Positions 4,511 to 41,472 are shown, counted from the stretch's first letter. The stretch is DNA of 57,086 bases from Silvanigrellaceae bacterium (GCA_044356935.1 JBIKVI010000001.1:1-57086), one strand, 5' to 3'. The notes: generated by a model from the letters alone, not told the origin. A program made the numbers and translations.

Positions 4511-4637
4511 TGAAAATCGACATGGATTGCACTAGGGTCGTGGGATTCAACCCACTATCAATGAGGGCTGGGATGGCAGCGGACGCGTGCGTAGCCGCTC
4601 CACCACACAGCACGGCATTCTATTCAGAGGATTACCC

Positions 4638-7423: not shown

Positions 7424-7425
7424 CA

Positions 7426-10798: not shown

Positions 10799-10822
10799 CA
10801 GGAAGTTTGCTGCGAGGTTTCC

Positions 10823-12366: not shown

Positions 12367-12376
12367 GGGAAGAAAC

Positions 12377-13084: not shown

Positions 13085-13114
13085 TGACCCGTCCCAATTG
13101 GAATCGAGAAACAC

Positions 13115-14335
13115 ATGACCTTCCAGACCAAGTATGGGCTTCCCGAGCACGTGACCTTCTGCGCGCGCTGCGTGATGTCGAACCAAAGACCGGCGTCGGC
13201 AGTGGAGTTCAAGCATACGAAAGAATCCAAGAAGACGACCCTCGCCATCGATGGCGAAGGGGTATGCGATGCTTGTCGCAACGCCGAGGAGAAAGAGCGG
13301 ATCAACTGGGTGGGACGCGAAGAGGAACTTCTGTGCCTCTTGGACAAATACCGTAAGAGCGACGGCTCGTACGACTGCATCGTCCCCGGAAGCGGCGGCA
13401 AGGACTCCGCCTACCAGGCGCACGTCCTCAAGTACAAGTATGGAATGAACCCTCTGACGGTCACGTGGCCGCCGATCCTCTACACGGAGTACGGCTACCG
13501 GAACTGGAAGAACTGGATCGACGTCGGCGGTTTTGATAATCTGTCGTTCACCCGCAACGGGCGCGTCATGAAGCTCCTTACGCGCCTCGCGATTGAGAAT
13601 CTGCTCCACCCCTTCCAGACGTTCATTCTCGGCCAGAAGAACTTCGGTCCCAAGCTGGCCGCCAAGTTTGGCATTCCTCTGGTGTTCTATGGCGAGAACG
13701 AGGCCGAGTACGGCAATCCCATCGCGGAGAACCAGTCGTCGCTGCGGGACAAAGCCTACTTCACGGCGAACAATTTCGACGAACTCTATCTCGCGGGCGT
13801 CACAGTCAAGGAACTCATGGAGCGCCACGACGTGCGCGCATCCGACCTTCTCGCCTTCCTCCCCGCGACCGCGGATGCTCTCCAGGGGCGCGAAGTGGAA
13901 GTCCACTACCTTGGTTACTACCTCAAATGGACGCCACAGGAGGTCTACTACTACGCCGTGGAAAACACCGGTTTCCAGGCACGGCCGTTCCGCACGCAGG
14001 GAACATACAGCAAGTACAACTCCATCGACGACAAGATCGACGACCTCCACTACTACACGACCCACATGAAGTTCGGCATCGGCCGTGCCACGTACGACGC
14101 CTCCCAGGAGATCCGCAACAAGCACATCACCCGCGAAGAAGGCGTGGCGCTCGTGAAGAAGTACGATGGGGAGTTTCCCGACCGGTATTTCAACGAGATC
14201 ATGGAATACATCGGGATGCGTCCGGAACGATTCCACGAGCTGTGCGACGCGGCTCGTTCCGAGCACCTTTGGTCGAAGGTCGACGGGGAATGGCGCCTTC
14301 GCCATACCGTGGCTGGCACCGGTTGCGACGACTGA
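13115..14335 (+). CDS. N-acetyl sugar amidotransferase (PP-loop ATPase; WbuX/WbpG/PseA-like)
   Basis: PP-loop VPGSGGKDSAYQAH. 406 aa. Immediately follows the hisF/hisH paralogs, as in known acetamidino-sugar loci. Confidence 0.85.
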   Translation: MTFQTKYGLPEHVTFCARCVMSNQRPASAVEFKHTKESKKTTLAIDGEGVCDACRNAEEKERINWVGREEELLCLLDKYRKSDGSYDCIVPGSGGKDSAYQAHVLKYKYGMNPLTVTWPPILYTEYGYRNWKNWIDVGGFDNLSFTRNGRVMKLLTRLAIENLLHPFQTFILGQKNFGPKLAAKFGIPLVFYGENEAEYGNPIAENQSSLRDKAYFTANNFDELYLAGVTVKELMERHDVRASDLLAFLPATADALQGREVEVHYLGYYLKWTPQEVYYYAVENTGFQARPFRTQGTYSKYNSIDDKIDDLHYYTTHMKFGIGRATYDASQEIRNKHITREEGVALVKKYDGEFPDRYFNEIMEYIGMRPERFHELCDAARSEHLWSKVDGEWRLRHTVAGTGCDD

Positions 14336-14342
14336 AGGCGCC

Positions 14343-29497: not shown

Positions 29498-30540
29498 AGC
29501 GCATTGCTCCCCTTGATTCGAAGTGTTGCCGGACGCTATCATGATCCGGTAGTAAAGTGAAGATCCGGACTTCGACCGAAGTCGACGGGAGTCTCCCAAG
29601 CCTCTCCACACATCCCAGCGACCTCTTCGCGTCGGCACCGAGGAAGTTCTACGATGCTCAAGGACACTGTCAAAGAAGAGTTTCCGTTCCTCTATTCCAC
29701 CGCCAAGGAGTTGGAGTTCCGTAGGTCCGGCGGAAAGTCGCTCCGCATGCGCACCCCATCGACCGACGACATCGCCGCGCAGTGGAAGTCAATCCTGTCA
29801 TTGAGCGCAAGCTCGCGGCAGGAGGTCCGAAAGGGCGGAAGCAAAGTTCTCTTCGTCACAGGTTTCGGACTGGGCTCCCACTACCACGCGATCGAACCCC
29901 TCATCATGATGGCCCTCCACGCGCGGTGAGCGGAAATAACGTCGTTCTCATGTGGGAAATCCTTGCCCGCCTGCGAGTTCAACCGGGTCGGCAACCAGCT
30001 CCCGCTCTTCGAGATGCATCCTCGTCCCGGGCTGACCAAGTCCACGCTCGCCGCCCAGTGCAACATTTGCGTGGAGAACCTCGATAGCCTGTATGACTTG
30101 TTTCCCATTGGCCGCGATACGTACGAAGATTTCAGGGCCGAAGCGGACGCGAGGATCGCTCGGGAGGCCGCCCAGACCGTGACTCTGGACAGACTCAGGT
30201 CGTGGTGTTTCGAAGGCATAGGCGTCGGGGATGAAGTGTTCGCGTCAATCCTAAGGACTACGTTGAGGGGTCGCATCCGCGATACGCCCTACGAGAATTA
30301 CCTCGCCAAGCGTTATGTGATGTCAGGGGTCATGCATGTGCTGAGCATGAGGAGAGCCCTCGACGCGCATCGCCCAGACAGGGCCGTTCTCATCCACGGC
30401 CTTTACCTCACGCATGGAATCGCGGCCCGCGTCGCCAATTCCATGGGCATTCCACTCGTCGTCATCTGTGGGGGAGGAATCCGGAAAGATACGGTCATCC
30501 TCTGCCACGCACAAACCTACCACCACCAGCTCATTAATGA
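29312..30540. repeat. Diverged direct repeat, copy 1 (5' part of the SDR gene + divergent intergenic region + 5' ~295 codons of the 588-aa gene)
   Basis: Collinear with 30536-31770 at nucleotide and protein level. Offset about 1224-1229 bp. Confidence 0.85.
29654..30537 (+). pseudogene. Truncated paralog of the 588-aa KpsS/KpsC-like gene (first ~295 codons, one in-frame TGA at 29927-29929)
   Basis: MLKDTVKEEFPFLYSTAKELEFRRSGG... aligns residue-for-residue with the N-terminus of 30883-32649. GGC (Gly) is replaced by TGA. Homology ends at ...TYHHQLI, where antisense SDR sequence begins. Confidence 0.8.
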
Positions 30541-30721
30541 ACTCGACGCGTCCGTGAAGATCGCCCAGGATACCGGCGGCGAACGGGCTCTCGCCATGAA
30601 TCTGCTGCGAGAGCGAATCGAGCATGACCACTTCCGCGCCACGATCGAGCATCGCGCGGGAAAAAGCACGACCAATGAATCCAGCCCCGCCCGTGACGAG
30701 GACTCGTCCGATTGAACTCAC
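30536..30721 (-). pseudogene. 5' fragment (~62 codons) of a paralog of the SDR epimerase/dehydratase gene
   Basis: VSSIGRVLVTGGAGFIGRAFSRAMLDRGAEVVMLDSLSQQIHGESP...GRVEFI matches the N-terminus of 28343-29497, then runs into antisense of the neighbouring fragment. Confidence 0.75.
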
Positions 30722-31770
30722 GTCACTGCGCTCCTCTAATGCAAATTGTTCGCGAAAGGTATCATGACCCAATGGCGAAGTGAACCTTTGGACTTCAACT
30801 GAGGATTGCATTAGCTTATGTCGCCAAGCCCCCGACCATAGCGGCCCACCCCTGCCCGCGTCGTTTCCGAGGAAGTTCCAAGATGCTCAAGGATACGATC
30901 AAGGAAGAATTCCCGTTTCTCTACTCCGCCGCCAAGGAACTCGAGTTCCGCAGGTCGGGCGGACAATCGCTGCGTTCGCGCACGCCATCGACCATCGACA
31001 TCATGGCCCAATGGAAGTCCGTCATCGCGTCGAGCTCGCCCGCGCGACTGGCGATCAACGAGGGTGGACGCAGGATTTTCTTCGTCACGGGGTTCGGCCT
31101 TGGTTCGCACTACCACGCCATCGAACCCCTCATCATGATGGCCCTGCAGGCGCGGGGCGCACGCATCACGTCTTTCTCCTGTGGAAAATCCCTGCCGGCG
31201 TGCGAATTCAACCGGGTCGGCAACCAGGTTCCGGCCTTCGAGATGCATCCGCGCCCGGGATTGACCAGGTCGACGCTCGCCGCGCAGTGCGCCGTGTGCG
31301 TCGAGAATCTCGACAGCCTTTACGATCTTCTCCCCATCGAGCGCGACACCTACGAACGCCACAGGCTCGAGAACGATGTGAGAATCGCTAGAGAGGCGGC
31401 CGACACCGTGACCCTCGAGAATCTCCGCTCGTGGTGCTTCGAGGGCATCGGCGTCGGCGACGAGGCATTCGCGTCGATCCTGCGCACGACCCTCAGGGGG
31501 CAGGTCCGCGACACGCCCTACGAACTCTATCTCGCGCGCCGTTACGTCATGTCGGGGGTGATGCACGTTCTCAGCATGCGCCGGGCCCTGGAGGCGCATC
31601 GCCCTGAAAAGGTCGTGCTCGTCCACGGACTTTATCTCACTCACGGGATCGCGTCGCGTGTCGCGAAAGCGATGGGGCTTCCCGTGGTCGTGATGGGGAG
31701 TGGCGGCATCCGGAAGGACACGGTCGTCCTCTGCCACGGACAGACCTACCATCATCAGCTCATCGATGAA
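30536..31770. repeat. Diverged direct repeat, copy 2
   Basis: See copy 1. The junction AATGAACTC at 30536-30544 matches 29312-29320. ATGAA is shared with GATGAA at 31765-31770. Confidence 0.85.
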
Positions 31771-32649
31771 GACAACCGCGTGTGGGAGGACGCGGACCTG
31801 ACGGAACCGCAGAAAGCGACGACGCTACGTTACGCCCTCGAAAAGAGGACCAACGGCGCGGCCGTCGACTACGTGACGTACCACCCCAATCCCAAGAACG
31901 CCCACGACGAGATCCGCGGGGAGCTCGCGCTCCCCGCCACCGACGACCGCCCCATCGTGTCGTTCTTCACGAACGTCTGCTGGGATGCACAGATCCTCTA
32001 CAAGTCGAACGTGTACGAGGACATCTTCGCCTGGGTGAGGAATTCCATCGCCATCGTCGCGCGCAATCCCAGGATCATCGGGGTCATCCGCATCCATCCC
32101 GCCGAAACCAAGGGGTCGATGAAGACGCAGCAGCCCATGGCCGACGAGATTCAGAAATGGTTTCCGCGGCTGCCCGAGAACATCCGCATCGTGAGCCCCG
32201 AGAACGACTGCAGTTCCTATTCTCTCGCTGAGATGAGCAGGCTCTCCGTCATCTATGGAACCAAAATGGGACTGGAGCTGGCGCTCATGCGTGTTCCGTT
32301 GCTCATCTGCGGCGAGACGTTCAGTCGCAACAAAGGATATGGCATCGACGTGCCCGACAGGCAGGCGTACGAATCACTTCTCATGAAGGCCCACGAGCAT
32401 CCTCCGCAATCCGCGCAGGCATTCGACCGGGCGTTGAAGTACGCGCATTATCTCTATTTCCGAAGGATGCTGAAGATTCCCATGGAATCGACGGTCGGGG
32501 CGGGAGGACTCTCGCGGACGAAACTCCTCATCTCGCGCCTCGAAGACCTCGACGCGGGAACCGATCCTGTCATGGACGTCATCTCCCGCGGCATTCTCGA
32601 AGACCAGAGCTTCTGCCTTCCCCACTCGAACTCCGATGCATCGCCTTGA
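30883..32649 (+). CDS. 588-aa KpsS/KpsC-like (PF05159-like) GT-B protein with an N-terminal four-Cys motif; candidate ulosonic-acid transferase
   Basis: Intact ORF. C-terminal half ...IGVIRIHPAETKG...LSVIYGTKMGLELALMRVPLLICGETF resembles capsule-biosynthesis GT-B proteins. Cys100/107/136/139 (CGKSLPAC...CAVC). Family call from memory only. Confidence 0.6.
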   Translation: MLKDTIKEEFPFLYSAAKELEFRRSGGQSLRSRTPSTIDIMAQWKSVIASSSPARLAINEGGRRIFFVTGFGLGSHYHAIEPLIMMALQARGARITSFSCGKSLPACEFNRVGNQVPAFEMHPRPGLTRSTLAAQCAVCVENLDSLYDLLPIERDTYERHRLENDVRIAREAADTVTLENLRSWCFEGIGVGDEAFASILRTTLRGQVRDTPYELYLARRYVMSGVMHVLSMRRALEAHRPEKVVLVHGLYLTHGIASRVAKAMGLPVVVMGSGGIRKDTVVLCHGQTYHHQLIDEDNRVWEDADLTEPQKATTLRYALEKRTNGAAVDYVTYHPNPKNAHDEIRGELALPATDDRPIVSFFTNVCWDAQILYKSNVYEDIFAWVRNSIAIVARNPRIIGVIRIHPAETKGSMKTQQPMADEIQKWFPRLPENIRIVSPENDCSSYSLAEMSRLSVIYGTKMGLELALMRVPLLICGETFSRNKGYGIDVPDRQAYESLLMKAHEHPPQSAQAFDRALKYAHYLYFRRMLKIPMESTVGAGGLSRTKLLISRLEDLDAGTDPVMDVISRGILEDQSFCLPHSNSDASP

Positions 32650-32787
32650 TCCTGCGCGGACGACCATGAATGGCCGAACCCGAGCCTTGCGTCTTCGGTC
32701 GCAACGAAGTTTAATGCGGTTCTAAACCGCGAAGCGGACGACAAGCCCTTCGTGATGATTCCGGCCAGCGCCAAGCAGGGAGTGCAG

Positions 32788-33777
32788 ATGCCGAACTCCA
32801 TCATCCGTGGCATTTCGTCGGCTTTCCCCCGGGGATCCCTTTCGTCGGATGAGGCAGCTCGTTCGACGGGTTTGTCTGCGGACATGCGGCGCTCGAAGTT
32901 GGGAATCGACGAGGTCAAAGTCGCCAGCAGCGAGGAACCGCCGTCCGTCCTGGCGACACGGGCCGTCGAGTCGCTCGTCGCCAAGCTCGCTCTCGACCGT
33001 GCCTCGATCGAGTTCCTCATACTGGTCACTCAGAATCCTGACTTCAAATTGCCGACGACGGCTTGTCTGGTGCAGCACGCGGCCAACCTGCCAACCTCGA
33101 TTCTCGCGTTCGACATGAACCTCGGCTGCTCGGGCTTCGTCGCCGCACTGAGCCAGGCGGACGCGATGATCCGATCGGGCCAGTCGAGGCGCGGTCTCAT
33201 CGTCACGGCGGAAACTTACAACCGAGTGATCTCTTCTGAAGACAAAGACACCTATGGGCTCTTCGGAGACGCCGCGGCGGCTGTTCTCGTCGAAGCGACG
33301 GACGAGGATGCGGGCTGTCAAAAGTTCCGGTTCGGAACAGATGGCTCCGGTTCCAGTAAACTTATCGTGCGCGCAGGGGGATCGCGGTTCGAGCAGGCCG
33401 CCACGCCGCGCGACAGGTTCCTTTACATGGACGGTCGGGGCATTTTCGAGTTCGTTTCGAAGGTCGTGGTCAACGACCTGAAGGCGTTCCTCAGCGAGAA
33501 CGAGCTTGAGACGGCCGACGTCGATCACTGGGTCTTTCACCAAGCCAACAAATACATGAACGACCGGCTCGTCACGCTCCTGGGCATCGATCCTTCGAAA
33601 GCGTTCTTCGACATTTCCGACATCGGAAACACCGTCAGCGCGACGATTCCCATCGCGCTCCAACGTGGACTGCAGGCAGGCGCCATCCCCTTCGGCAAGA
33701 TCGTGTTCTGCGGATTTGGCGTTGGGCTCTCATGGGCTTCCTGCCTCTATTTGAACAGGACGCGGATCGTCGCATGA
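32788..33777 (+). CDS. KAS III (FabH-like) 3-oxoacyl-ACP synthase / KAS III-like acyltransferase
   Basis: Cys-His-Asn triad contexts LGCSGFVAAL, WVFHQANKYMN, IGNTVSATIPIAL. ATG 32788 lies 5 nt after AGGGAG. Confidence 0.85.
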   Translation: MPNSIIRGISSAFPRGSLSSDEAARSTGLSADMRRSKLGIDEVKVASSEEPPSVLATRAVESLVAKLALDRASIEFLILVTQNPDFKLPTTACLVQHAANLPTSILAFDMNLGCSGFVAALSQADAMIRSGQSRRGLIVTAETYNRVISSEDKDTYGLFGDAAAAVLVEATDEDAGCQKFRFGTDGSGSSKLIVRAGGSRFEQAATPRDRFLYMDGRGIFEFVSKVVVNDLKAFLSENELETADVDHWVFHQANKYMNDRLVTLLGIDPSKAFFDISDIGNTVSATIPIALQRGLQAGAIPFGKIVFCGFGVGLSWASCLYLNRTRIVA

Positions 33778-33838
33778 ACGCGAACGGCCGTGAGTCTCGA
33801 CCCCTTGCCATATCAGGCACACGCCAAAGGATCCTCCC

Positions 33839-34078
33839 ATGCACTCGGAACAAACCGTCAGTAAGCTCGAGGCCATCGTCAATCAGTGCGGTGACTACCC
33901 GCGTAATCCGATTTCATTGAATGATCTTTTGCGCAATGGTGAAAAGCTCGAACTCGATAGCCTCGGACTTTTCGAACTCTCGGCTCTTGTCGAGGAGAAT
34001 TTCGGAAAGCGGCTGAGCGACGAGGAATTGCCGCAAGCCGTGCATTTGCCGTTCCTCATTGAATGGGTGGAGAATTGA
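33839..34078 (+). CDS. Acyl carrier protein
   Basis: 79 aa with phosphopantetheine-attachment motif LELDSLGLFELSALVE. Confidence 0.8.
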   Translation: MHSEQTVSKLEAIVNQCGDYPRNPISLNDLLRNGEKLELDSLGLFELSALVEENFGKRLSDEELPQAVHLPFLIEWVEN

Positions 34079-34109
34079 GCCCTCGACGATGCGCGGAAAG
34101 TAGCCTGTC

Positions 34110-35153
34110 GTGACCACCTCGAATCTCAACTTCACTGCGCGCATGTGCCTTGAGCAGGATGTCCCGGCCCTGCGCATGTTCCTGTCGACGCATTGGAAAT
34201 CCGATCACGTCTTCGTGAAGGATCCCGGAGTCTTCGATTGGCAGCATCCCGTCGATCGATCCGGCAGGGTCTCTTTCGCGATCGCTGAAGACCGATCGAC
34301 GCGCGAAATCGTGGGGGCCCTGGGATATGTCCCGCTGGAACGTTTCGATGCCGAACTCGCCTGCCACAGACACTTCTGGTTGGCGCTGTGGAAGGTCTCC
34401 GATCCCAAACGATACCAGGGAGCAGGCGTCGCGCTCCTCAACTTCGTCCGGAAGCACACGGGAGCCTCGTTCCTTGGAGCCATGGGCCTGACGGAGGAGG
34501 TGGTACCGCTGTATCGGGCACTCCGTTTCTCGGTGGGTCGAACGACGCAATGGATCCTCGACAGGGAGTCAACGGCGGCAGCCTCTTCCGTCCACTCCCA
34601 GGTCGTCGAGTGGGCTCAATGGAACCAGAGTCATCCGCACCCCCGAGGGGAGATCCCAAAGCTGTGGACTCCGTTCAAGTCGCTCGCGTTCTTCAGGAAT
34701 CGCTTCGTGGAGAACCCTTTCTACGCATACGATGTCCTGGTTTCCGTTCAGCATGGTGAGCCCCGCGCAGTCCTGGCGAGCCGCATCTGCGAAGGTAACG
34801 GTGTTCGCGTGGCTCGCATCGTGGATTTCTATGGCGACTGGGATTCCCTTCCCTCCCTCGCCGCGCACGTGAAGGCCAGGGCGGAAACACGAGGAGCGCT
34901 CTATACCGACTTGGTTAGCTGGCGCGGCGACGAGGAGACCCTGCGCAAAGCCGGATTCGTCCCCCGTCAGGTAAGCTCGCATCCAAACGCCCCTCACCGC
35001 TTCGAGCCGTTCGACCCCGCTCCGAGGGAGCTCCTCTGCGCGTTTGAAGGATCGCAGGACGATCGAGTTTGTTTCTTCAAGGCCGATGCCGACCAAGATC
35101 GCCCCGCACTGTCGGGACTTCGGAGAAGCCATTTAGTGGTGCATGTTTCATGA
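34110..35153 (+). CDS. GNAT-like (two-domain) acyltransferase, candidate N-acyltransferase
   Basis: N-terminal acetyltransferase-like core (...WKVSDPKRYQGAGVALLNFV...), 347 aa, operon position between the ACP and deacetylase genes. Weak motif-level call. Confidence 0.5.
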   Translation: MTTSNLNFTARMCLEQDVPALRMFLSTHWKSDHVFVKDPGVFDWQHPVDRSGRVSFAIAEDRSTREIVGALGYVPLERFDAELACHRHFWLALWKVSDPKRYQGAGVALLNFVRKHTGASFLGAMGLTEEVVPLYRALRFSVGRTTQWILDRESTAAASSVHSQVVEWAQWNQSHPHPRGEIPKLWTPFKSLAFFRNRFVENPFYAYDVLVSVQHGEPRAVLASRICEGNGVRVARIVDFYGDWDSLPSLAAHVKARAETRGALYTDLVSWRGDEETLRKAGFVPRQVSSHPNAPHRFEPFDPAPRELLCAFEGSQDDRVCFFKADADQDRPALSGLRRSHLVVHVS

Positions 35154-36118
35154 GTTCATCCTTGACGACGATCACCTACCACTACGTCCGTCCCATCGCT
35201 TCGAGTCCGTACCCCGGAATCAAGGGGCTCGAGCTTGAGCTCTTCCGTCGGCAACTCGACTTTCTCATGGAACGTTACAGCTTCGTGTCCATGGAGCGGC
35301 TGATCGCGTTTCGCGAAGGGCGCGACGACATCCCTCACTCTTCCGCCCTGCTAACTTTCGATGACGGCTATCGGGATCACTTCCTCCACGTCTTTCCTGA
35401 GCTCGCGTCGCGCGGCCTCGCCGGAGCGTTCTACGTTCCGGTGGATGCGGTGGAAGGCAAGGTACTCGACGTCAACAAGATCCATTTCGTTCTCGCATCC
35501 GGGGTCGATGTCGAGGAAATGGGAGCACGCATCGACCGGATCGTCGAGGCGCACCGCGACGACCCGCGGGTGCGTGCGGTTGCATGGTATCGGGAAACCT
35601 ATCGGCGTCCGAGTCGATGGGACTCAGGCGAAGTCGTGTATGCGAAGCGGATGTTGCAGACGGCGCTTCCCGAAGACATCCGGTCAGGAATCGTCGACGC
35701 GTTTTTCCGCGAACGGGTCACCGAAGACGAATGCACTTTCTCGGCGGATCTCTACGCGTCGAAGGATGAGTTGCGCACGATGAGGGATCACGGAATGCAC
35801 ATCGGTGGGCATGGGGTGAAGCACGTCCGGTTGAGCACACTCGATCCGAAAGGCCAGCACGCCGAGATCGCGGGAAGCAAAGCATGGCTCATCGAGAACC
35901 GCCTCGCCTCGGAGGACGCATTTTCTTTCTGCTATCCCTATGGGGATTACGACGCCGCGACGGTGGAGGTCCTCCGTGAATGCGGAGCGAAGGTCGGTCT
36001 TTCACTCAAGTCCGGGACATGCGACCCTGCGGTGGTCGATTCCCTTGAGATCCCGCGCCTCGACACGAACGTTTTCCTCAGTTTTCAAGCCACCCCGTCC
36101 ACGATTGGTGGTTCATGA
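35150..36118 (+). CDS. Polysaccharide deacetylase (NodB/CE4 family)
   Basis: LLTFDDGYRDHFLHVFPELASRGLAGAFYV, with later HGVKH. ATGA overlap with the upstream gene. Confidence 0.85.
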   Translation: MSSSLTTITYHYVRPIASSPYPGIKGLELELFRRQLDFLMERYSFVSMERLIAFREGRDDIPHSSALLTFDDGYRDHFLHVFPELASRGLAGAFYVPVDAVEGKVLDVNKIHFVLASGVDVEEMGARIDRIVEAHRDDPRVRAVAWYRETYRRPSRWDSGEVVYAKRMLQTALPEDIRSGIVDAFFRERVTEDECTFSADLYASKDELRTMRDHGMHIGGHGVKHVRLSTLDPKGQHAEIAGSKAWLIENRLASEDAFSFCYPYGDYDAATVEVLRECGAKVGLSLKSGTCDPAVVDSLEIPRLDTNVFLSFQATPSTIGGS

Positions 36119-36372
36119 AGCCGGATTCTCGAAAAGTCCTTGTCCCCATCACCAACCGCGTCCACTGGACGCGGCTTTGCCCGCTGTTGCGGGTGCTGTC
36201 CACCGATTCGGCCTTTGATCTTCAGATCGCTCTCGGGCATGCGGCCCTGCTTGAAGGTAACGGGGTTGTGCGACAGGAGATGTCGTTGGACGGCATCATT
36301 TCCGCGTACTCGTTCGATTTTCTGCTGGAAGGTCGATCCAGTGGTGCCATGGCGAAAACCGCGGCCCTGGGG
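36115..36372 (+). pseudogene. 5' fragment (~86 codons) of a NeuC-family hydrolysing 2-epimerase gene
   Basis: MKPDSRKVLVPITNRVHWTRLCPLLRVL...GRSSGAMAKTAALG parallels the N-terminus of 37681-38856. Homology stops at ~36372, and the ORF then runs 11 unrelated codons to a stop at 36405. ATGA-coupled to the deacetylase. Confidence 0.8.
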
Positions 36373-36839
36373 CACCGCGAATCGTCGCCCCAGCACCTCG
36401 ACTAGGACTGCGACGGACTGGAACATGTGGCCCATAATGAATGCGGGCTTGGAAGGGGGCGCCCAGCCTTGTTCTCTGACTCCTGGAGTAGGGACTTGAC
36501 GGCAGGCATGCGCCTGCCCTCCTTGGGGACCTTAAGGCCATCAACGACAAGTACGACCCTACCGTTCACGCGAACCAAGTGGCTGGCGAATATCTTGAAC
36601 ACGATGCGGGTCTAGGCGTCGGCAAGCGTGCCGGGATCGACGCGAGACCTAAAGAAGCGCAGTAAAGACTTGTAGAAGGCGGGTTTGAGGTCCAGGGCAC
36701 GGACGATGCTGGTGACCCTTCGCAGGTCGGTGCGGACCATGAAGCCGATGACGGCCGTGACGAAGACGAAGAAGGTCGTCTTGCGCGGAAAGACCGGGCG
36801 CAGTTGCGCAAGGACGGGGAGAAGGCGTATCCAGGGCAT
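36373..36839 (-). mobile_element. Degraded transposase-like gene remnant (N-terminal ~155 codons spread over three frames); putative IS scar extending to ~37010
   Basis: Consecutive coding segments: MPWIRLLPVLAQLRPVFPRKTTFFVFV...TSIVRALDLKPAFYKSLLRFF, then ...VVLVVDGLKVPKEGRRMPAVKSL.QESEN, then ...FIMGHMFQSVAVLVEVLGRRF. They need two frameshifts and end abruptly at the neuC fragment. Resemblance to DDE transposase N-termini is from memory, and the family is not assigned. Confidence 0.5.
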
Positions 36840-36926
36840 GGGGCCCTCCTGTCACGTTGTTGTGTAAGCAGCACAACGAAACAGCGAGGGCCTTCCTAAT
36901 TCAAATGACAAAAATACAAAGACCTG

Positions 36927-37008
36927 CCCGGGTTATTGTCCCGGTGGGCGGTTACAAGAATTTCAAGCTACATCAAACCTGGCTCGCCCACCGGGACGAG
37001 AACCCGGG
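36927..37008. repeat. Inverted repeat with 24-nt arms (3 mismatches) and 34-nt AT-richer spacer
   Basis: 36927-36950 is CCCGGGTTATTGTCCCGGTGGGCG. 36985-37008 is CGCCCACCGGGACGAGAACCCGGG, whose reverse complement is CCCGGGTTCTCGTCCCGGTGGGCG. Confidence 0.85.
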
Positions 37009-37013
37009 AATCG

Positions 37014-37208
37014 TGAGTAAAGTAAGCACACTACCTGTACTTTCGCCGCATGCTGAAGATCCCGTGCGATTCCGCGGTCGCGGCCGGTGGGCACTCTGGT
37101 ACGAAACTTCTCATCTCCCGCCTCGAGGATCTCGATGAAGAAAAGGACCCTTCGATGGACGTCATTGCGAACGGCATTATCAATGGCGCCGACTTCTGGC
37201 TTCCGTGA
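37014..37208 (+). pseudogene. 3' fragment (last ~55-60 codons) of another paralog of the 588-aa KpsS/KpsC-like gene
   Basis: AHYLYFRRMLKIPCDSAVAAGGHSGTKLLISRLEDLDEEKDPSMDVIANGI... parallels KYAHYLYFRRMLKIPMESTVGAGGLSRTKLLISRLEDLDAGTDPVMDVISRGI... of 30883-32649. In-frame TAA at 37023, stop at 37206-37208. Confidence 0.75.
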
Positions 37209-37680: not shown

Positions 37681-38856
37681 ATGAATTCAAATCCTCGCCG
37701 GATCCTCGTCCCCATCACCAACCGTGTCCACTGGACTCGTCTCCGCCCGCTCTTGCGCATGCTCGCCTCAGATCCCGACTTCGAAGTCCAGATCGCCCTT
37801 GGTCATGCCGCACTCCTCGAAGGAAACGGCGTGGTGAAGCATGAGATGTCGCTTGATGGCATCTTGCCTTCCTATTCGTTCGACTTCCTCATGGAAGGCC
37901 GGTCGAGCGGGGCCATGGCCAAAACCGCTGCGCTTGGGATGTACGAGTTCGCGGGAATCGCAAAGGAGTCGGATCCCGATCTCGTCCTCATTCGGGGCGA
38001 CCGCTACGAGGTCTTGGGACTCGGATTCGCCGCAGCGTGCCTCAACATTCCCATTGTGCACGTCGAGGGGGGAGATGTCTCGGGAAACATCGACGACAAA
38101 GTCCGTCATGCCGTCACCAAACTCAGCGAACTTCACTTCGTGACCAATGAAGCCTCGCGCGATCGCGTCATCCAGATGGGGGAGGATCCCACTCATGTGC
38201 ACAACACCGGGAGCCTCGAGGTCGACACCATACGGATCGCTTCGATCGAGTTTCCTGAATGGCTTTTCACCCGCTACACCGGGGTTGGATCGAAGTGGGA
38301 TCCCAAGGACGGGTACCTCCTCGTGATGCAGCATCCGGTGACGGATGAAATCGACAAGGCGTTCGAGCAGATGCTCACCACCCTGCGAGCCGCCGTTTCC
38401 TCTGGACTCGGTGTCGTTTGCCTCCATCCGAATTCCGACGCGGGTGCCGATGGCATTTCAAAGGCGCTTCGTGTGTTCAGGGAGAGCACCCCGCGTGCCC
38501 AGCTGCACGTGTTCCGTGGATTCACGTCCACGGATTTCCTTTCAGTACTGGCGAGTGCGAGGTGCTTGGTAGGCAACAGCTCCGCAGGCGTGAAGGAGTG
38601 CGCTGTCCTGGGAGTCCCTTCGGTTAATGTCGGAAGCCGCCAGGAAGGCCGACTGCGTGGCGAGAACGTCTTGGACTGCAGCGGAAACTCGGCGACCGAG
38701 CTACTGGAAGCCATTCGATCGCAAGTACAGCATGGCCCCTATCCTCCCTCCCAGATCTACGGCGATGGTCGCGCGGCGGAGAGGATGATCGGACACCTGA
38801 GGAGTTTTCGCGCTTACAAGAAGTCCTTTCAAAGCATCGAGAGGGCACGCACGTGA
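37681..38856 (+). CDS. neuC: NeuC-family hydrolysing UDP-GlcNAc 2-epimerase, second intact copy in the window
   Basis: ILVPITNRVHWTRLRPLL, GDRYEVLG, VHVEGGDVSGNIDDKVRHAVTKLSELHFV. ATG 37681. Confidence 0.85.
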   Translation: MNSNPRRILVPITNRVHWTRLRPLLRMLASDPDFEVQIALGHAALLEGNGVVKHEMSLDGILPSYSFDFLMEGRSSGAMAKTAALGMYEFAGIAKESDPDLVLIRGDRYEVLGLGFAAACLNIPIVHVEGGDVSGNIDDKVRHAVTKLSELHFVTNEASRDRVIQMGEDPTHVHNTGSLEVDTIRIASIEFPEWLFTRYTGVGSKWDPKDGYLLVMQHPVTDEIDKAFEQMLTTLRAAVSSGLGVVCLHPNSDAGADGISKALRVFRESTPRAQLHVFRGFTSTDFLSVLASARCLVGNSSAGVKECAVLGVPSVNVGSRQEGRLRGENVLDCSGNSATELLEAIRSQVQHGPYPPSQIYGDGRAAERMIGHLRSFRAYKKSFQSIERART

Positions 38857-39635
38857 AACACCTGGCCATCATCACGGCAAGAGGCGGATCAAAGGGAATC
38901 CCGCGCAAGAATGTGCGTGATGTTGGCGGGGCTCCGCTCATCGCTTTCACTCTTTCGGTTGCGGGCCAAGCCCGCTGCTTCGATCGCGTCTTCCTCTCGA
39001 CGGACAGTGACGAAATCCTCTCGGTTTGCTCCGCGTGGGGTCTTTCGACGCCATACCGCAGGCCAACGGAATTGGCGGACGACCATTCGACATCTCGGGA
39101 TGTCGTCCTGCATGCGCTTGAGTACCTCGCATGGGAAGAGGATTACGTTCCCGATTTCGTCACCATTCTGCAGCCGACGAGTCCGTTCCGGACGAACGTC
39201 GAACTCGCCGAGTATGCCGGAATCGCGGAGAGGGCCGAACACCTGAATGCGGGCGTCGTCTCCGTCTCGGATGTGGGCCACTTTCACCCGCGCCGAATGT
39301 TCACGCTGGAAGGTGGCTTCGCCGTGCGCCTGCAACCTTCTTACGGAACGAATCCTCGTCGCCAGGATCTCGGGCCGACTTACGTGATGACGGGAGGCTA
39401 CTTCGGTTTCAAGCCTTCCGTCGTCCTAAACACGGCAAGCTGCCTCGCGGACAGGCTCCTGCCTTTTTTCATTAGGGACCCTTTGGCCGTTCTGAACATC
39501 GACGAACCATTCGATTTGGAAGTCGCGGATCTCTTCATGCGCTACTCATCCTCGACCCGGGCGCTGCAGGTTCGCGACGAGCTGGGTGAGTACCGTGCAT
39601 CGCTCGGTGCCACGCTTAAAGGAGGGAAGTCATGA
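38853..39635 (+). CDS. neuA: Acylneuraminate cytidylyltransferase family CMP-NulO synthetase, second copy
   Basis: AIITARGGSKGIPRKNV. GTGA overlap with neuC. Confidence 0.85.
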   Translation: MKHLAIITARGGSKGIPRKNVRDVGGAPLIAFTLSVAGQARCFDRVFLSTDSDEILSVCSAWGLSTPYRRPTELADDHSTSRDVVLHALEYLAWEEDYVPDFVTILQPTSPFRTNVELAEYAGIAERAEHLNAGVVSVSDVGHFHPRRMFTLEGGFAVRLQPSYGTNPRRQDLGPTYVMTGGYFGFKPSVVLNTASCLADRLLPFFIRDPLAVLNIDEPFDLEVADLFMRYSSSTRALQVRDELGEYRASLGATLKGGKS

Positions 39636-40456
39636 CGAGTCCACGCCCCCCAAACGACGTGCTTTCACCCGAGGTGCGAAGGCACCTCGGCCACCTTCAT
39701 ACGAAGGTCTTCAATCCTGGCGGCGATTATCCTCAGTTCGCGGCGATGCTGGACGCCATGGAGGATTGGGCAGCGGGTCATGTCGCCGCAAAATCCCTTC
39801 TGGTTCTGGAGCGAGCTTACATTTACGGAGGCACTTGCCTCTTCGCTCCGCTTTTCGAGCGTCACAAAGTAACGGCTATGGATTGCCATCTCGCATCGAC
39901 GAAGGATCGATACGGGTTCAATAGCCACATGGCGGATAGTCCTGACGTGATTCGCCGTCCACCTGATGCCGAGGGTCCCATTTGGGAGTTGCCGTTTGCC
40001 GACGATTCGTTCGACCACGTCGTTTGTCCGAACGTCGTGCACCACGTCCGCGACCAGGCCTCCATGATCTCCGAGTGGGAGCGTGTCCTCAAACCCGGGG
40101 GAACCGGTTTCCTGTTCGAAGCGCTGGTACGGGAACTTCACCAGGTGCCAGACGACTACCTGCGATACACTCCTTTCGGCATGAAGGCGGAGCTCGAGAA
40201 AAGAGGCTTGGACGTCGTCTGGTGGAAGCCCACGACGGACGTCTTCGACGTCATCCGCTACTGCTTCCTCCAGGCGTTCCAGAATTTCCCGTCCGACCGC
40301 TCAGCCGATACCGAGGAGTGGGTGCGCAACGAGGTCTTTCCTCGGCTCTCGCGTTGGTCGGAGGAGTATCCGTCGAACCTGAAGAACCCCGCCAAGTCGT
40401 TTCCAACAGGATTCCTGCTCGAGTTCCGGAAGCCAGAATCGCTCGAGACGACCTAA
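39632..40456 (+). CDS. Class I SAM-dependent methyltransferase (type 11-like) embedded in the NulO operon
   Basis: VCPNVVHHVRDQASMISEWERVLKPGGTGFLFE. ATGA overlap with neuA. Confidence 0.75.
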   Translation: MTSPRPPNDVLSPEVRRHLGHLHTKVFNPGGDYPQFAAMLDAMEDWAAGHVAAKSLLVLERAYIYGGTCLFAPLFERHKVTAMDCHLASTKDRYGFNSHMADSPDVIRRPPDAEGPIWELPFADDSFDHVVCPNVVHHVRDQASMISEWERVLKPGGTGFLFEALVRELHQVPDDYLRYTPFGMKAELEKRGLDVVWWKPTTDVFDVIRYCFLQAFQNFPSDRSADTEEWVRNEVFPRLSRWSEEYPSNLKNPAKSFPTGFLLEFRKPESLETT

Positions 40457-40467
40457 GGAGCCCACAC

Positions 40468-41472
40468 ATGCACGTAGATTGCGTTGCCGAGATCGCCCAA
40501 GCACATGACGGTAGCGTAGGTATTCTTCATTCCTTCATCGACGCGCTCGCGGAAACCGGAATCGATGCGATAAAGTTCCAAATGCACTATGCCGAAGCCG
40601 AGAGCAGTGCGCATGAACCCTTTCGGGTCAATTTCTCGCGAGTGGACGACACACGTTTCAACTACTGGAAAAGAATGGAGCTCACCCCGGCGCAGTGGCA
40701 CGAAGTGAAGAACCACTGCGATGAGCGAGGAGTCGAGTTCCTCGTCACTCCTTTCTCACTGAAGGCTGTGGGGATCCTCGAAACGCTGGGGGTGAAACGT
40801 TATAAAATCGGCTCGGGCGATATTCTGAGTCTTCCTCTCCTGGAGGCTGTGTGCCGCACCGGAAAAGAGGTCGTACTTTCCACCGGCCTAGCGAGTATTG
40901 ACGACATAAGGATTGCGGTCGAGTTCGTAACGGCATTCGGAAATCCATTGAAGGTGCTTCAGTGCACCTCGGAATACCCTACACCTCCCGAACGCACGGG
41001 GCTTTCGTTTATTCCTAAACTCGCCGCTCGCTTCGGATGCCCCGTGGGCCTGTCGGATCACTCCGGTACGCCGTATCCCTCGCTCGCCGCAGTCGCGCTC
41101 GGTGCCACGTTCATCGAGTTTCATGCTGCTTTCGACAGAAGAATGTTCGGACCGGATGCGCGAAGCTCCCTCCTGATTGACGAGATCGCGGACCTCGTCC
41201 GGGGTATCCGTTTCCTCGAGCGGGCGCTCGCTGCGAATTTTTCGAAGGAGCATCACGCGGAGCACGACACTTCTCGTAAAAACTTTGGAAGGAGCCTTGC
41301 GCTCGCCAAGCCCCTCAGGAAAGGGGATTCGCTTTCGCTTAAGGACATCGAGGTCAAAAAGCCGGCTGGGATGGGGATACCTGCGTCGGAGTACAGGGCC
41401 GTCCTCAACAAGGTCGCTCGCAGGCACCTGGAGGAAGGTTCATTTCTCTCGTGGGACGACTTCGAGAAGTGA
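40468..41472 (+). CDS. neuB: NeuB-family nonulosonic (sialic) acid synthase, second copy
   Basis: VAEIAQAHDGSVGILHSFIDALAETGIDAIKFQMH and C-terminal SAF-like LRKGDSLSLKDIEVKKP. ATG 40468 follows AAGGAG. Confidence 0.9.
   Translation: MHVDCVAEIAQAHDGSVGILHSFIDALAETGIDAIKFQMHYAEAESSAHEPFRVNFSRVDDTRFNYWKRMELTPAQWHEVKNHCDERGVEFLVTPFSLKAVGILETLGVKRYKIGSGDILSLPLLEAVCRTGKEVVLSTGLASIDDIRIAVEFVTAFGNPLKVLQCTSEYPTPPERTGLSFIPKLAARFGCPVGLSDHSGTPYPSLAAVALGATFIEFHAAFDRRMFGPDARSSLLIDEIADLVRGIRFLERALAANFSKEHHAEHDTSRKNFGRSLALAKPLRKGDSLSLKDIEVKKPAGMGIPASEYRAVLNKVARRHLEEGSFLSWDDFEK

What the first reader, a model, noticed from the sequence alone, without database searches (positions are those of the whole stretch)
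32788..36118. FabH-ACP-GNAT-deacetylase cassette wired to a NeuC/NeuA/NeuB pathway: candidate ACP-dependent N-acyl remodelling of a sialic-acid-like sugar
Four consecutive genes encode a KAS III-like enzyme (intact Cys/His/Asn), a dedicated ACP (DSL motif), a GNAT-like two-domain acyltransferase and a NodB-type deacetylase. The deacetylase stop is ATGA-coupled to the start of a NeuC-family gene (now only a fragment), so in the ancestral arrangement this cassette was co-translated with a hydrolysing 2-epimerase. A plausible logic is as follows. The N-acetyl group of the HexNAc/ManNAc-type precursor is removed. A short acyl group (for example an acetoacetyl- or 3-hydroxybutyryl-type group made by KAS III) is built on the private ACP. 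That group is then transferred to the free amine before condensation by NeuB. KAS III-like proteins can alternatively act directly as acyltransferases. N-acyl variants of NulOs are known chemically, but I am not aware of a defined gene set like this one for making them.
Basis: inference. Interest (0 to 1): 0.75.

Follow-up and report, generated by a model that had tools for sequence, protein, structure and literature searches.

The report
ACP-fed N-acyl editing cassette for sialic-acid-like sugars
Four intact genes next to a sialic-acid-like sugar pathway look like a kit that removes the sugar's N-acetyl group and replaces it with a short acyl group built on a private carrier protein; its two core genes, one from an unnamed family, recur across many bacterial phyla, offering a testable answer to how bacteria diversify these surface sugars.

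Summary
Window 32752/32788-36118 encodes a KAS III paralogue with an intact Cys-His-Asn triad, a 79-aa ACP (DSL, Ser41), a 347-aa protein with no Pfam or NCBIfam hit, and a cytoplasmic CE4 deacetylase with intact metal ligands. The 347-aa protein ('X347') models as a tandem GNAT. X347/CE4 and CE4/neuC' each overlap by ATGA.

X347 belongs to an unnamed family (at least 1259 clusters at E<=1e-30; at least 363 species genomes). In 46 loci with 8 kb on both flanks:
- a CE4 of one conserved subfamily is adjacent in 35;
- NeuA, NeuB or NeuC lies within 10 kb in 30.

An ACP lies within 5 kb in 37 of 56 loci. The acyl supply is interchangeable: FkbH-like loaders in about half of the loci, AMP-ligase/LuxE in others, and KAS III in only five loci plus the window.

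Best reading: CE4 removes an N-acetyl group, KAS III and the ACP make a C4 acyl-ACP, and X347 re-acylates the amine. Substrate, position, timing and acyl identity are inferred.

The cassette arrived with a transferase gene as a roughly 6.4-kb recombined block.

Novelty: a new variant of a known kind. The logic matches NodB/NodA/NodF/NodE and the Pseudomonas syringae viosamine island.

The parts
32752..33777 (+). KAS III (FabH-like) paralogue; probable ATG start at 32788. Proposed maker of the short acyl-ACP.
   Evidence: Pfam ACP_syn_III and ACP_syn_III_C. Triad C126/H263/N293. Below the housekeeping FabH cut-offs. 54% identical to the KAS III next to the closest X347 homologue (L001), and 41-44% identical to those in L054 and L036.
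33839..34078 (+). Dedicated acyl carrier protein, 79 aa, with the phosphopantetheine serine in the DSL motif (Ser41).
   Evidence: PP-binding 19.4 bits, just below the cut-off. Weak ACP NCBIfam hits. DSL motif read from the sequence. 46-bit match to the ACP of L001.
34110..35153 (+). X347: tandem-GNAT protein of an unnamed family. Proposed acyl-ACP:amino-sugar N-acyltransferase.
   Evidence: No Pfam or NCBIfam hit. AF2 pLDDT 84.6. Foldseek to NMT, MAB_4324, VipF and Eis. Conserved motifs LALWK, RIVDF.G, P..FEPF and GDxDQDRPN. Family size. Gene linkage.
35150..36118 (+). CE4 (NodB-fold) metallo-deacetylase with no signal peptide. ATGA-coupled to X347 upstream and to neuC' downstream.
   Evidence: Polysacc_deac_1 63 bits. 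PgaB-like N-terminal part. D71/D72/H221/H225 and subfamily signatures conserved in 57-58 of 58 X347-linked CE4s. Overlaps read.
36115..36405 (+). neuC' fragment: the first ~89 codons of a hydrolysing 2-epimerase gene. It marks the end of the imported block.
   Evidence: 75% aa and 74% nt identity to the start of the intact neuC at 37681. TIGR03568 hit. Only 24% identity to NeuC1.
30883..32649 (+). GT588: 588-aa protein of an unannotated family, imported together with the cassette. Candidate NulO transferase.
   Evidence: Weak GT4 hit only. About 100 homologues, all named 'hypothetical' where a source gives a name. In the two homologue loci examined, L090 (Aliarcobacter) and L091, the gene sits beside CTP_transf_3, NeuB/NeuC and Capsule_synth genes.
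29654..30616 (+). N-terminal remnant of the resident GT588 paralogue; a pseudogene with an in-frame stop.
   Evidence: tblastn: 74% identity to GT588 residues 1-321, with a stop codon inside. Repeat D1.
36987..37205 (+). C-terminal remnant of the resident GT588 paralogue. Right edge of the insertion.
   Evidence: tblastn: 60% identity to GT588 residues 508-580. Repeat D3.
36406..36986 (.). Junction DNA with no recognisable gene. It holds a strong hairpin at 36927-37008, which runs on into the next part.
   Evidence: No Pfam hit for its ORFs. Inverted repeat I2. Fold energy -51 kcal/mol, z -6.1.
37681..38856 (+). Intact NeuC-type hydrolysing UDP-HexNAc 2-epimerase (the ORF can be called from 37585).
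   Evidence: Epimerase_2 212 bits. TIGR03568 312 bits against a cut-off of 235.9. PDB best matches are the GNE epimerase domain and LegG.
38853..39635 (+). NeuA-type CMP-NulO synthetase.
   Evidence: CTP_transf_3. PseF model 130 bits, below its cut-off.
39632..40456 (+). SAM-dependent methyltransferase inside the neuA-neuB operon.
   Evidence: Methyltransf_11 and Methyltransf_25.
40468..41472 (+). NeuB-type NulO synthase; a divergent second copy in this window.
   Evidence: NeuB and SAF domains. TIGR03569 270 bits, below its cut-off. PDB best match is the N. meningitidis NeuB. 33% identical to NeuB1.

Best explanation
The cassette is an N-acyl editing module for a nonulosonic (sialic-acid-like) sugar. 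The proposed steps are:

1. KAS III condenses acetyl-CoA with malonate held on the private ACP to give acetoacetyl-ACP. A trans-acting FabG may reduce this to 3-hydroxybutyryl-ACP.
2. The cytoplasmic CE4 metallo-deacetylase removes an N-acetyl group from an intermediate of the adjacent NeuC/NeuB/NeuA pathway. My guess is the acetyl inherited from UDP-GlcNAc, which becomes N5. The stage could be nucleotide-sugar, free NulO or CMP-NulO.
3. The tandem-GNAT protein X347 transfers the ACP-borne acyl group onto the freed amine.
4. NeuA activates the edited sugar, and the co-imported GT588 probably transfers it.

Shown: gene identities, catalytic residues, the X347 fold, translational coupling, and the conserved linkage X347 + CE4 + ACP + NulO genes in many phyla.

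Inferred: every substrate, the order of steps, the position edited, and the acyl group.
For: The tandem-GNAT fold with an intact motif A (QGAGVA; G106 invariant in A1 and at least 90% conserved in A4) comes.

ATGA coupling of X347-CE4-neuC' is read directly.

Comparative genomics:
- CE4 adjacent in 35 of 46 loci, NeuA/B/C within 10 kb in 30 of 46, and an acyl-supply gene within 5 kb in 35 of 46.
- ACP within 5 kb in 37 of 56 loci.
- The X347-linked CE4s form one subfamily with conserved metal ligands.
- In about 43 of 85 loci the partner is an FkbH-family loader. By established biochemistry of that family it makes glyceryl-S-ACP, so the ACP carries a short acyl unit, and N-glyceroyl NulOs are known (PMC5378307).
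- X347 clades track the donor type: 53 of 61 nearest neighbours agree, against a permutation mean of 17.5.
- A hexapeptide N-acetyltransferase is retained in at least 10 of 16 loci with a complete diamino-NulO pathway plus X347; CE4 is also present in 9 of these 10. X347 therefore does not simply replace PglD/LegH, which fits a remove-and-replace mechanism.

Literature precedents:
- The KAS III + ACP + FabG + acyltransferase island gives N-(3-hydroxy-1-oxobutyl)viosamine (PMC3927599).
- A deacetylase and a formyltransferase sit inside a Leg cluster, and free-amine CMP-NulOs were detected (bioRxiv 10.64898/2026.04.20.719630).

The cassette was imported together with a transferase allele as one block.
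Against: There is no experiment on any family member.

16 of 46 full-flank loci have no NeuA/B/C within 10 kb. These include L001, the closest relative of the window's cassette.

About a third of loci show no ACP, so some X347 proteins may use acyl-CoA.

The window cassette has no ketoreductase, and none turned up among the ORFs I scanned, so the acyl group may be acetoacetyl or something else.

KAS III-like enzymes can act as acyltransferases or as CoA-to-ACP transacylases.

The window also holds DegT, a PglF-like dehydratase, a PglC-like transferase and a second Leg cluster. The true acceptor could therefore be a different amino sugar.

The census covers only the 80 loci most similar to the query out of at least 363, and it used single-sequence phmmer classification.
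Confidence: 0.6

Rival explanations
1. The module acylates a different amino sugar of the same glycan, not the NulO. An example would be the 4-amino group of a bacillosamine- or viosamine-type sugar made by the nearby DegT and PglF-like enzymes. CE4 would then have a separate role.
For: DegT, a PglF-like dehydratase and a PglC-like transferase lie 5-11 kb downstream. The viosamine-island precedent acylates a 4-amino hexose (PMC3927599). 16 of 46 loci lack NeuABC, while several of these carry DegT/PglF or sugar-nucleotide epimerases.
Against: A free 4-amine needs no deacetylase, yet CE4 is the most constant partner (35-40 of 46). The ancestral ATGA coupling is to neuC. NeuA/B/C are the most frequent pathway neighbours. 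Loci such as L020 and L075 have NeuB/NeuC/NeuA but no DegT or PglF.
Confidence: 0.15
2. The cassette attaches a long fatty acyl chain, giving a lipidated glycan or anchor, as has been suggested for FAS-like genes in flagellin glycosylation islands.
For: X347's best structural matches are N-myristoyltransferases. The literature speculates about a 'liposugar' (PMC4875605). LuxC/LuxE and AMP-ligase sub-modules handle fatty acyl groups in other systems.
Against: The window has only a KAS III, with no elongating KAS I/II, dehydratase or enoyl reductase. The dominant partner elsewhere is FkbH, which supplies a C3 glyceryl unit. The NMT matches have TM scores of only about 0.45-0.5 and reflect the shared tandem-GNAT fold.
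Confidence: 0.06
3. KAS III and the ACP make an unrelated small product, or KAS III itself is the acyltransferase. X347 would use a CoA thioester, possibly acetyl-CoA, and CE4 would act on the finished polymer or on O-acetyl groups.
For: About a third of X347 loci have no detectable ACP. KAS III-like enzymes acting as acyltransferases are known (established knowledge). The PgaB-like relatives of this CE4 act on polymers.
Against: CE4 has no signal peptide (read from the sequence). The ACP and a loader gene flank X347 in most loci, and X347 clades follow the loader type. Removing an acetyl and then re-adding an acetyl would be futile.
Confidence: 0.1
4. The cassette is a silent hitch-hiker: DNA left by a recombination event, not expressed or not functional in this organism.
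For: It lies in a mosaic region with three gene remnants and junction DNA. No promoter-like site was found.
Against: All five imported genes are full length, keep their catalytic residues and keep translational coupling. The promoter scan covers only sigma-70 consensus sites.
Confidence: 0.05

Closest known systems
Rhizobial Nod-factor N-acylation: NodB deacetylase, NodA N-acyltransferase, NodF ACP, NodE ketosynthase (from established knowledge)
   Same: The logic is identical. A CE4/NodB-fold enzyme removes an N-acetyl group. A dedicated ACP and ketosynthase supply the acyl group. An N-acyltransferase puts it on the freed sugar amine.
   Different: The acceptor here is a NulO-pathway sugar rather than a chitooligosaccharide. 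The acyltransferase is a tandem GNAT, not a NodA-family protein. The ketosynthase is KAS III (short chain), not KAS I/II. This is not a member of that system.
Pseudomonas syringae viosamine island: vioA, vioB, vioS (KAS III), acp, vioR (FabG), vioM, vioT; and the P. aeruginosa PAK orfB/C/D genes (PMC3927599)
   Same: KAS III plus a private ACP inside a glycan locus gives an N-(3-hydroxybutyryl) amino sugar. A methyltransferase and a matching transferase sit in the same island.
   Different: There the acceptor is the free 4-amine of dTDP-viosamine, so no deacetylase is needed, and the named 'dTDP-viosamine acetyltransferase' is VioB. Here there is a CE4 and a tandem GNAT, no FabG in the cassette, and the neighbours are NulO genes.
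Campylobacter jejuni flagellin glycosylation locus: Cj1295 and the FkbH-domain gene Cj1302, which give dimethylglyceroyl-pseudaminic acid (PMC3068675, PMC7099621, PMC5378307). That the locus also holds acpP2/3 and fabH2 is from my memory.
   Same: ACP, FabH-like and FkbH genes sit in a NulO locus. A glyceric-acid-type acyl group replaces the N-acetyl at C5 of Pse.
   Different: The only gene tied to the modification by experiment is Cj1295, annotated as aminopeptidase-like. I could not test whether C. jejuni has an X347 or CE4 homologue.
FAS-like genes in Aeromonas and enterobacterial flagellin glycosylation islands: ACP, FabG, AMP-synthetase, LuxE, LuxC, and deacetylases (PMC7874193, PMC4875605)
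   Same: These are the same gene types as the AMP-ligase/LuxE sub-module found next to X347 in Vibrio and other loci (L007, L016, L024).
   Different: Those papers list the genes without a mechanism ('may incorporate a liposugar'). They do not single out the tandem-GNAT protein.
Candidatus Kuenenia stuttgartiensis Leg cluster with deacetylase and formyltransferase (bioRxiv 10.64898/2026.04.20.719630)
   Same: A deacetylase inside a NulO cluster is followed by re-acylation. CMP-NulOs with a free amine were detected, so editing precedes glycan transfer.
   Different: The new acyl group is formyl, from a formyltransferase, and no ACP is involved. I did not test whether its deacetylase belongs to the same CE4 subfamily.
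Tandem-GNAT acyltransferases: N-myristoyltransferase, Eis, MAB_4324, VipF
   Same: The fold is two fused GNAT domains. The N-terminal domain carries the pantetheine-binding motif A.
   Different: Sequence identity is 10-13%. No Pfam GNAT model is matched. The C-terminal signature GDxDQDRPN and the gene context are distinct.

Membership tests
KAS III / FabH family | Thiolase-fold ACP_syn_III N- and C-terminal domains | tested here: met
   Pfam 81 and 83 bits, above the cut-offs. PDB FabH homologues down to E 1e-51.
KAS III / FabH family | Cys-His-Asn catalytic triad | tested here: met
   C126, H263 and N293 in the canonical motifs.
KAS III / FabH family | Housekeeping FabH equivalog score | tested here: not met
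   238.3 against 249 (NF006829) and 204.4 against 292.1 (TIGR00747). It is a paralogue, not the housekeeping enzyme.
Acyl carrier protein (PP-binding) | Protein of about 80 aa with a DSL phosphopantetheine site | tested here: met
   79 aa, with LELDSLG read from the sequence.
Acyl carrier protein (PP-binding) | Pfam PP-binding above the gathering score | tested here: inconclusive
   19.4 bits against 20.8. Weak hits to several NCBIfam ACP models.
Acyl carrier protein (PP-binding) | Modification to holo-ACP and loading with an acyl group | not testable with these tools
   Needs mass spectrometry of the expressed protein.
GNAT superfamily (tandem GNAT, NMT/Eis-like) | Two GNAT folds in one chain | tested here: met
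   AF2 pLDDT 84.6. Foldseek probability 1.0 to NMT, MAB_4324, VipF and Eis2.
GNAT superfamily (tandem GNAT, NMT/Eis-like) | Motif A (Q/R-x-x-G-x-G/A) for pantetheine binding | tested here: met
   QGAGVA in the N-terminal domain. G106 is invariant among the 15 sequences of A1 and at least 90% conserved among the 148 of A4.
GNAT superfamily (tandem GNAT, NMT/Eis-like) | Match to a curated GNAT sequence model | tested here: not met
   No Pfam or NCBIfam hit at E<=0.01. A profile search of PDB sequences gives only E 0.01 to RimI.
GNAT superfamily (tandem GNAT, NMT/Eis-like) | Acyl transfer to an amine | not testable with these tools
   Needs an enzyme assay.
CE4 / NodB polysaccharide deacetylase | Polysacc_deac_1 domain | tested here: met
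   63 bits against 23.1.
CE4 / NodB polysaccharide deacetylase | Asp-Asp and His-His metal and catalytic residues | tested here: met
   D71/D72 are invariant in 58 of 58, and H221/H225 conserved in 57 of 58, X347-linked CE4s.
CE4 / NodB polysaccharide deacetylase | Substrate is an N-acetylated sugar of the NulO pathway | not testable with these tools
   Inferred from linkage only.
NulO (Neu/Leg-type) biosynthesis: NeuC-NeuB-NeuA | Hydrolysing 2-epimerase (NeuC_NnaA) | tested here: met
   312 bits against 235.9.
NulO (Neu/Leg-type) biosynthesis: NeuC-NeuB-NeuA | NulO synthase and CMP-NulO synthetase | tested here: inconclusive
   The Pfam NeuB, SAF and CTP_transf_3 domains are clear. The NCBIfam equivalog cut-offs are not reached: 270 against 400, and 130 against 206. 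Neu-type versus Leg-type is not resolved.
Nod-factor NodABFE system | NodA-family N-acyltransferase | tested here: not met
   X347 has no Pfam hit, NodA included. Its fold is GNAT.
Nod-factor NodABFE system | NodB-type deacetylase plus a dedicated ACP and ketosynthase | tested here: met
   CE4, ACP and KAS III are contiguous. The ketosynthase, however, is class III, not NodE-like.

The most novel reading that the evidence does not exclude
The unnamed tandem-GNAT family (X347) and its dedicated CE4 partner are the general, long-sought machinery that swaps the N-acetyl group of bacterial nonulosonic acids for other acyl groups such as glyceroyl, hydroxybutyryl and aminoacyl-like groups. The acyl group is programmed simply by which acyl-ACP supply sub-module (FkbH, KAS III or AMP-ligase/LuxE) sits beside the pair. 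The window shows such a module being moved between strains together with a matching transferase.
Probability: 0.45. Interest if true: 0.8.

Novelty: new variant of a known kind. Interest (0 to 1): 0.66.

Why it matters
N-acyl variants of pseudaminic, legionaminic and related acids decorate flagella, capsules, O-antigens and S-layers. They shape serotype, phage binding and immune recognition.

The genes that install the non-acetyl groups are largely unknown. A 2017 study of Tannerella forsythia called the genetic basis of the N-glyceroyl and N-acetimidoyl substitutions 'a major challenge' (PMC5378307).

This work yields a recurrent two-gene core with swappable acyl-ACP suppliers, present in cultured Vibrio, Butyrivibrio, Phocaeicola, Chitinophaga, Tepidicaulis and Bradyrhizobium. 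That gives a concrete hypothesis that gene knock-outs can test. It would allow NulO acyl chemistry to be predicted from genomes. It would also provide enzymes for making N-acyl sialic-acid analogues.

Tried and rejected
- I looked for an IS or transposase in the junction (36296-36874, minus-strand ORFs). Pfam found nothing, so 'IS remnant' stays unproven.
- The sigma-70 promoter scan of 30.5-38 kb found none, and terminator-like sites were at background level. It is uninformative.
- A tblastn search of X347 against plasmids gave one unannotated Subdoligranulum hit. No use.
- Cluster look-up and a profile search for source names of X347 relatives returned 'hypothetical protein' wherever a source gave a name. 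I could not link the family to an organism with a solved NulO structure.
- A literature search for the Yersinia ruckeri O1 NulO acyl structure returned nothing. My recollection of a 4-hydroxybutyryl group at N5 is therefore unverified. The O1-specific gene list does show PP-binding, AMP-synthetase, FabG and a polysaccharide deacetylase in consecutive loci, with one locus tag missing from the list (PMC5552943).
- I rejected the idea that neuC' is a decayed tandem duplicate of the resident neuC. At 74% nucleotide identity, and with flanking remnants of a GT paralogue, it points to import from a related locus.
- I rejected 'U554' as a separate unknown family. It is FkbH-like.
- PDB and NCBIfam comparisons could not decide whether pathway 2 is Neu-type or Leg-type.

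Full report
**1. What is in the sequence**

Between 32752 and 36118 the + strand carries four contiguous intact ORFs.

- The first has both KAS III Pfam domains. It keeps the Cys-His-Asn triad as C126, H263 and N293. It scores below the NCBIfam cut-offs for housekeeping FabH, so it is a dedicated paralogue.
- The second is a 79-aa protein with the DSL phosphopantetheine motif. Its matches to ACP models are marginal but consistent.
- The third is 347 aa and I call it X347. It has no Pfam or NCBIfam match. An AlphaFold2 model built from 15 homologues is confident (pLDDT 84.6, pTM 0.84). Foldseek places it among tandem-GNAT acyltransferases: N-myristoyltransferase, MAB_4324, VipF and Eis. The N-terminal half carries GNAT motif A.
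- The fourth is a CE4/NodB-fold deacetylase. It has no signal peptide and keeps the Asp-Asp and His-His residues.

X347 and CE4 overlap by ATGA. CE4 overlaps, again by ATGA, a 96-codon ORF that is the 5' end of a neuC gene.

**2. Surroundings**

Downstream lie an intact NeuC (312 bits against a cut-off of 236), a NeuA-type cytidylyltransferase, a methyltransferase and a divergent NeuB. After these come DegT, a PglC-like transferase, a Wzy_C protein and a PglF-like dehydratase.

The window also holds a second, complete legionaminic-type cluster at 4.6-14.3 kb. It includes the WbuX/HisH/HisF amidotransferase set. Further along are an ABC transporter and a Capsule_synth-like gene. The whole window is therefore a large surface-polysaccharide locus. 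It comes from a 69-kb contig of a JGI metagenome.

**3. The cassette arrived as a block**

- The neuC fragment is only 74% identical in nucleotides (75% in amino acids) to the intact neuC 1.3 kb downstream. It is unrelated to the other NeuC (24% identity).
- Upstream of the cassette is an intact 588-aa gene, GT588. Pieces of a paralogue of GT588 lie on both sides of the block. Its residues 1-321 are at 29654-30616 (74% identity, with an in-frame stop). Its residues 508-580 are at 36987-37205 (60% identity).
- So a segment of about 6.4 kb replaced the middle of a resident GT gene that used to sit directly before neuC. The segment carries GT588, KAS III, ACP, X347, CE4, the 5' end of neuC, and about 0.6 kb of junction DNA with a strong hairpin.
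- The donor locus therefore had the same order as the resident locus, plus the cassette.
- GT588 homologues are unannotated proteins of about 580 aa. In Aliarcobacter butzleri and one other contig they sit beside CTP_transf_3, NeuB/NeuC and Capsule_synth genes. This suggests a NulO transferase that travelled with the editing genes. That last point is inference.

**4. Related loci**

X347 is the most informative marker.

- A word-indexed search found only 15 relatives. A full profile search found 3205 clusters at E<=1e-3 and 1259 at E<=1e-30.
- A scan of one genome per species found at least 363 loci. They span Bacillota, Bacteroidota, Pseudomonadota, Acidobacteriota, Planctomycetota, Verrucomicrobiota and other phyla.
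- Where a source gives a name at all, it is 'hypothetical protein'.

I classified the neighbours in 85 non-redundant loci by phmmer, using the window's proteins and neighbours seen as queries.

Results for the 46 loci with at least 8 kb on both flanks:
- CE4 adjacent in 35, and present somewhere in the locus in 40.
- NeuA, NeuB or NeuC in 30; NeuB or NeuC in 27.
- An acyl-supply gene within 5 kb in 35.

After building an ACP profile, an ACP is found within 5 kb in 37 of 56 loci.

The 58 X347-linked CE4s form one subfamily. Its shared signatures are MYHYxR, LTFDDGY, LDVNKIH, GMxxGxHGxxH, YPYG and RxDxN.

The acyl-supply genes fall into interchangeable types:
- FkbH-like loaders, with or without a MaoC-SDR fusion or FabG, in about 43 loci. 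The 'U554' protein proved to be FkbH family.
- AMP-ligase with LuxE or LuxC, as in Vibrio.
- KAS III with or without FabG: the window, L001, L008, L036 (Verrucomicrobiota) and L054 (Planctomycetaceae).
- No detectable supplier, which is common in Lachnospiraceae.

X347 sequences cluster by supplier type: 53 of 61 nearest neighbours agree, against a permutation mean of 17.5 and maximum of 31. Shared taxonomy contributes to this signal.

The 16 loci without NeuABC show no alternative consistent pathway.

**5. Mechanism**

The constant pairing of a deacetylase with an acyltransferase argues for a remove-and-replace reaction on an N-acetyl group. Three things support this.

- Both enzymes are cytoplasmic and translationally coupled to each other and to neuC.
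- The pair is usually flanked by a carrier protein and an enzyme that loads it.
- At least 10 of 16 loci with a full diamino-NulO pathway plus X347 also keep a PglD/LegH-type N-acetyltransferase, and 9 of these 10 also carry CE4. X347 is therefore not a substitute for that enzyme.

FkbH enzymes make glyceryl-S-ACP (established knowledge). N-glyceroyl NulOs exist, and their genes are unknown (PMC5378307).

For the KAS III variant the best documented parallel is the Pseudomonas syringae viosamine island. There vioS (KAS III), acp and vioR (FabG) are assigned to make the N-(3-hydroxy-1-oxobutyl) group, and deleting vioR abolishes the modified sugar (PMC3927599).

I therefore propose acetoacetyl- or 3-hydroxybutyryl-ACP as the donor in the window. 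I found no ketoreductase in the cassette or among the ORFs I scanned, so any reduction would need a trans-acting FabG.

The position and stage of editing are not determined. The acetyl inherited from UDP-GlcNAc (N5) is the only acetyl that cannot be avoided by leaving out an acetyltransferase, which favours N5. Free-amine CMP-NulOs in Kuenenia show that such editing can occur before glycan transfer (bioRxiv 10.64898/2026.04.20.719630).

Whether pathway 2 makes a Neu-type or a Leg-type sugar is unresolved. Its NeuB and NeuC are closest to those of X347 loci that lack DegT and PglF. That hints at a mono-amino sugar, for which N5 would be the only candidate position.

**6. Comparison with what is known**

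The logic is that of NodB/NodA/NodF/NodE, but with an unrelated acyltransferase and a different acceptor.

FAS-like genes in NulO and flagellin glycosylation loci have been listed repeatedly without a mechanism (PMC7874193, PMC4875605, PMC7099621). In C. jejuni only Cj1295 has been tied to the dimethylglyceroyl-Pse modification (PMC3068675).

In the literature I could search, I found no description of the tandem-GNAT family or of its pairing with a CE4. The finding is best filed as a new variant of a known kind of glycan-tailoring module.

**7. Limits**

- All function is inferred.
- The census used the 80 loci most similar to the query, and single-sequence or small-profile searches.
- 'NeuA' hits could include other cytidylyltransferases, which is why I also give the NeuB/NeuC-only figure.
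- A third of the loci lack NulO genes within 10 kb. These include L001, the closest relative of the window's cassette.
- About a third lack a detectable ACP.

**8. Verdict**

Novelty is moderate. Interest is 0.66, because the result turns an acknowledged open question, the genetic basis of NulO N-acyl diversity, into a directly testable one.

Noticed in passing
window 4587-14335 (+): A second, complete legionaminic-type NulO cluster. It holds a dehydratase, DegT, a PglD-like acetyltransferase, NeuB1, NeuC1, a CBS-NTP transferase, a cytidylyltransferase, and the HisF/HisH/WbuX amidotransferase set for an acetamidino group. NeuB1 is only 33% identical to NeuB2, so one locus encodes two different NulO pathways.
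   Followed up: partly
window 29654-30616 and 36987-37205 (+): Two halves of a disrupted paralogue of GT588 flank the cassette block (74% and 60% aa identity, with stops inside). This shows that about 6.4 kb was inserted by recombination into a resident GT-neuC arrangement.
   Followed up: yes
window 36406-37008: Junction DNA with no recognisable gene. A 75-aa minus-strand ORF at 36612-36839 has no family hit. A strong hairpin sits at 36927-37008 (-51 kcal/mol, z -6.1). Its origin (IS end, MITE or terminator) is unknown.
   Followed up: partly
window 30883-32649 (+); L090 8001-9743; L091 8001-9743: GT588 belongs to a family of about 580-aa proteins with no Pfam model; every member that carries a source name is called 'hypothetical'. 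In the two loci examined (Aliarcobacter butzleri, L090, and L091) it lies next to CMP-NulO synthetase, NeuB/NeuC and Capsule_synth-like genes. It is a candidate NulO transferase or polymerase.
   Followed up: partly
window 14166-18436 (+): Two tandem AT3 + SGNH membrane acyltransferase genes (probable O-acetyltransferases) lie directly after the Leg cluster.
   Followed up: no
L009, L010, L013, L017, L020, L075, L012: Some X347 loci have no detectable ACP or acyl-supply gene. In L009, L010 and L013 the CE4-X347 pair stands apart from any detected NulO or amino-sugar gene. L017, L020, L075 and L012 carry the NeuB/NeuC closest to the window's NeuB2/NeuC2; they lack DegT and PglF, and L017 has a D-2-hydroxyacid dehydrogenase instead. 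This suggests CoA-dependent donors and a mono-amino NulO in that clade.
   Followed up: partly
L003, L023, L038, L043, L061, L070 and about 15 other loci: There is a recurrent sub-module: ACP, FkbH-like loader, X347, MaoC-dehydratase/SDR fusion and CE4, in some loci (e.g. L003, L023, L038) followed by HisH/HisF. The dehydratase-reductase implies that the glyceryl-ACP is processed further before transfer. The product is unknown.
   Followed up: no
literature: Yersinia ruckeri O1 (PMC5552943): The serotype-O1-specific gene list holds consecutive loci: PP-binding protein, AMP-dependent synthetase, 3-oxoacyl-ACP reductase, one unlisted locus tag (BI323_13900), then a polysaccharide deacetylase. 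These lie far from the O1-specific legionaminic acid cluster. The unlisted gene may be an X347 homologue. I could not check the genome.
   Followed up: no
window 39632-40456 (+): A SAM-dependent methyltransferase is wedged between neuA and neuB with overlapping stop and start codons. It could methylate the NulO or its acyl group, as vioM does for viosamine and as seen in the C. jejuni dimethylglyceroyl group (PMC3927599).
   Followed up: no
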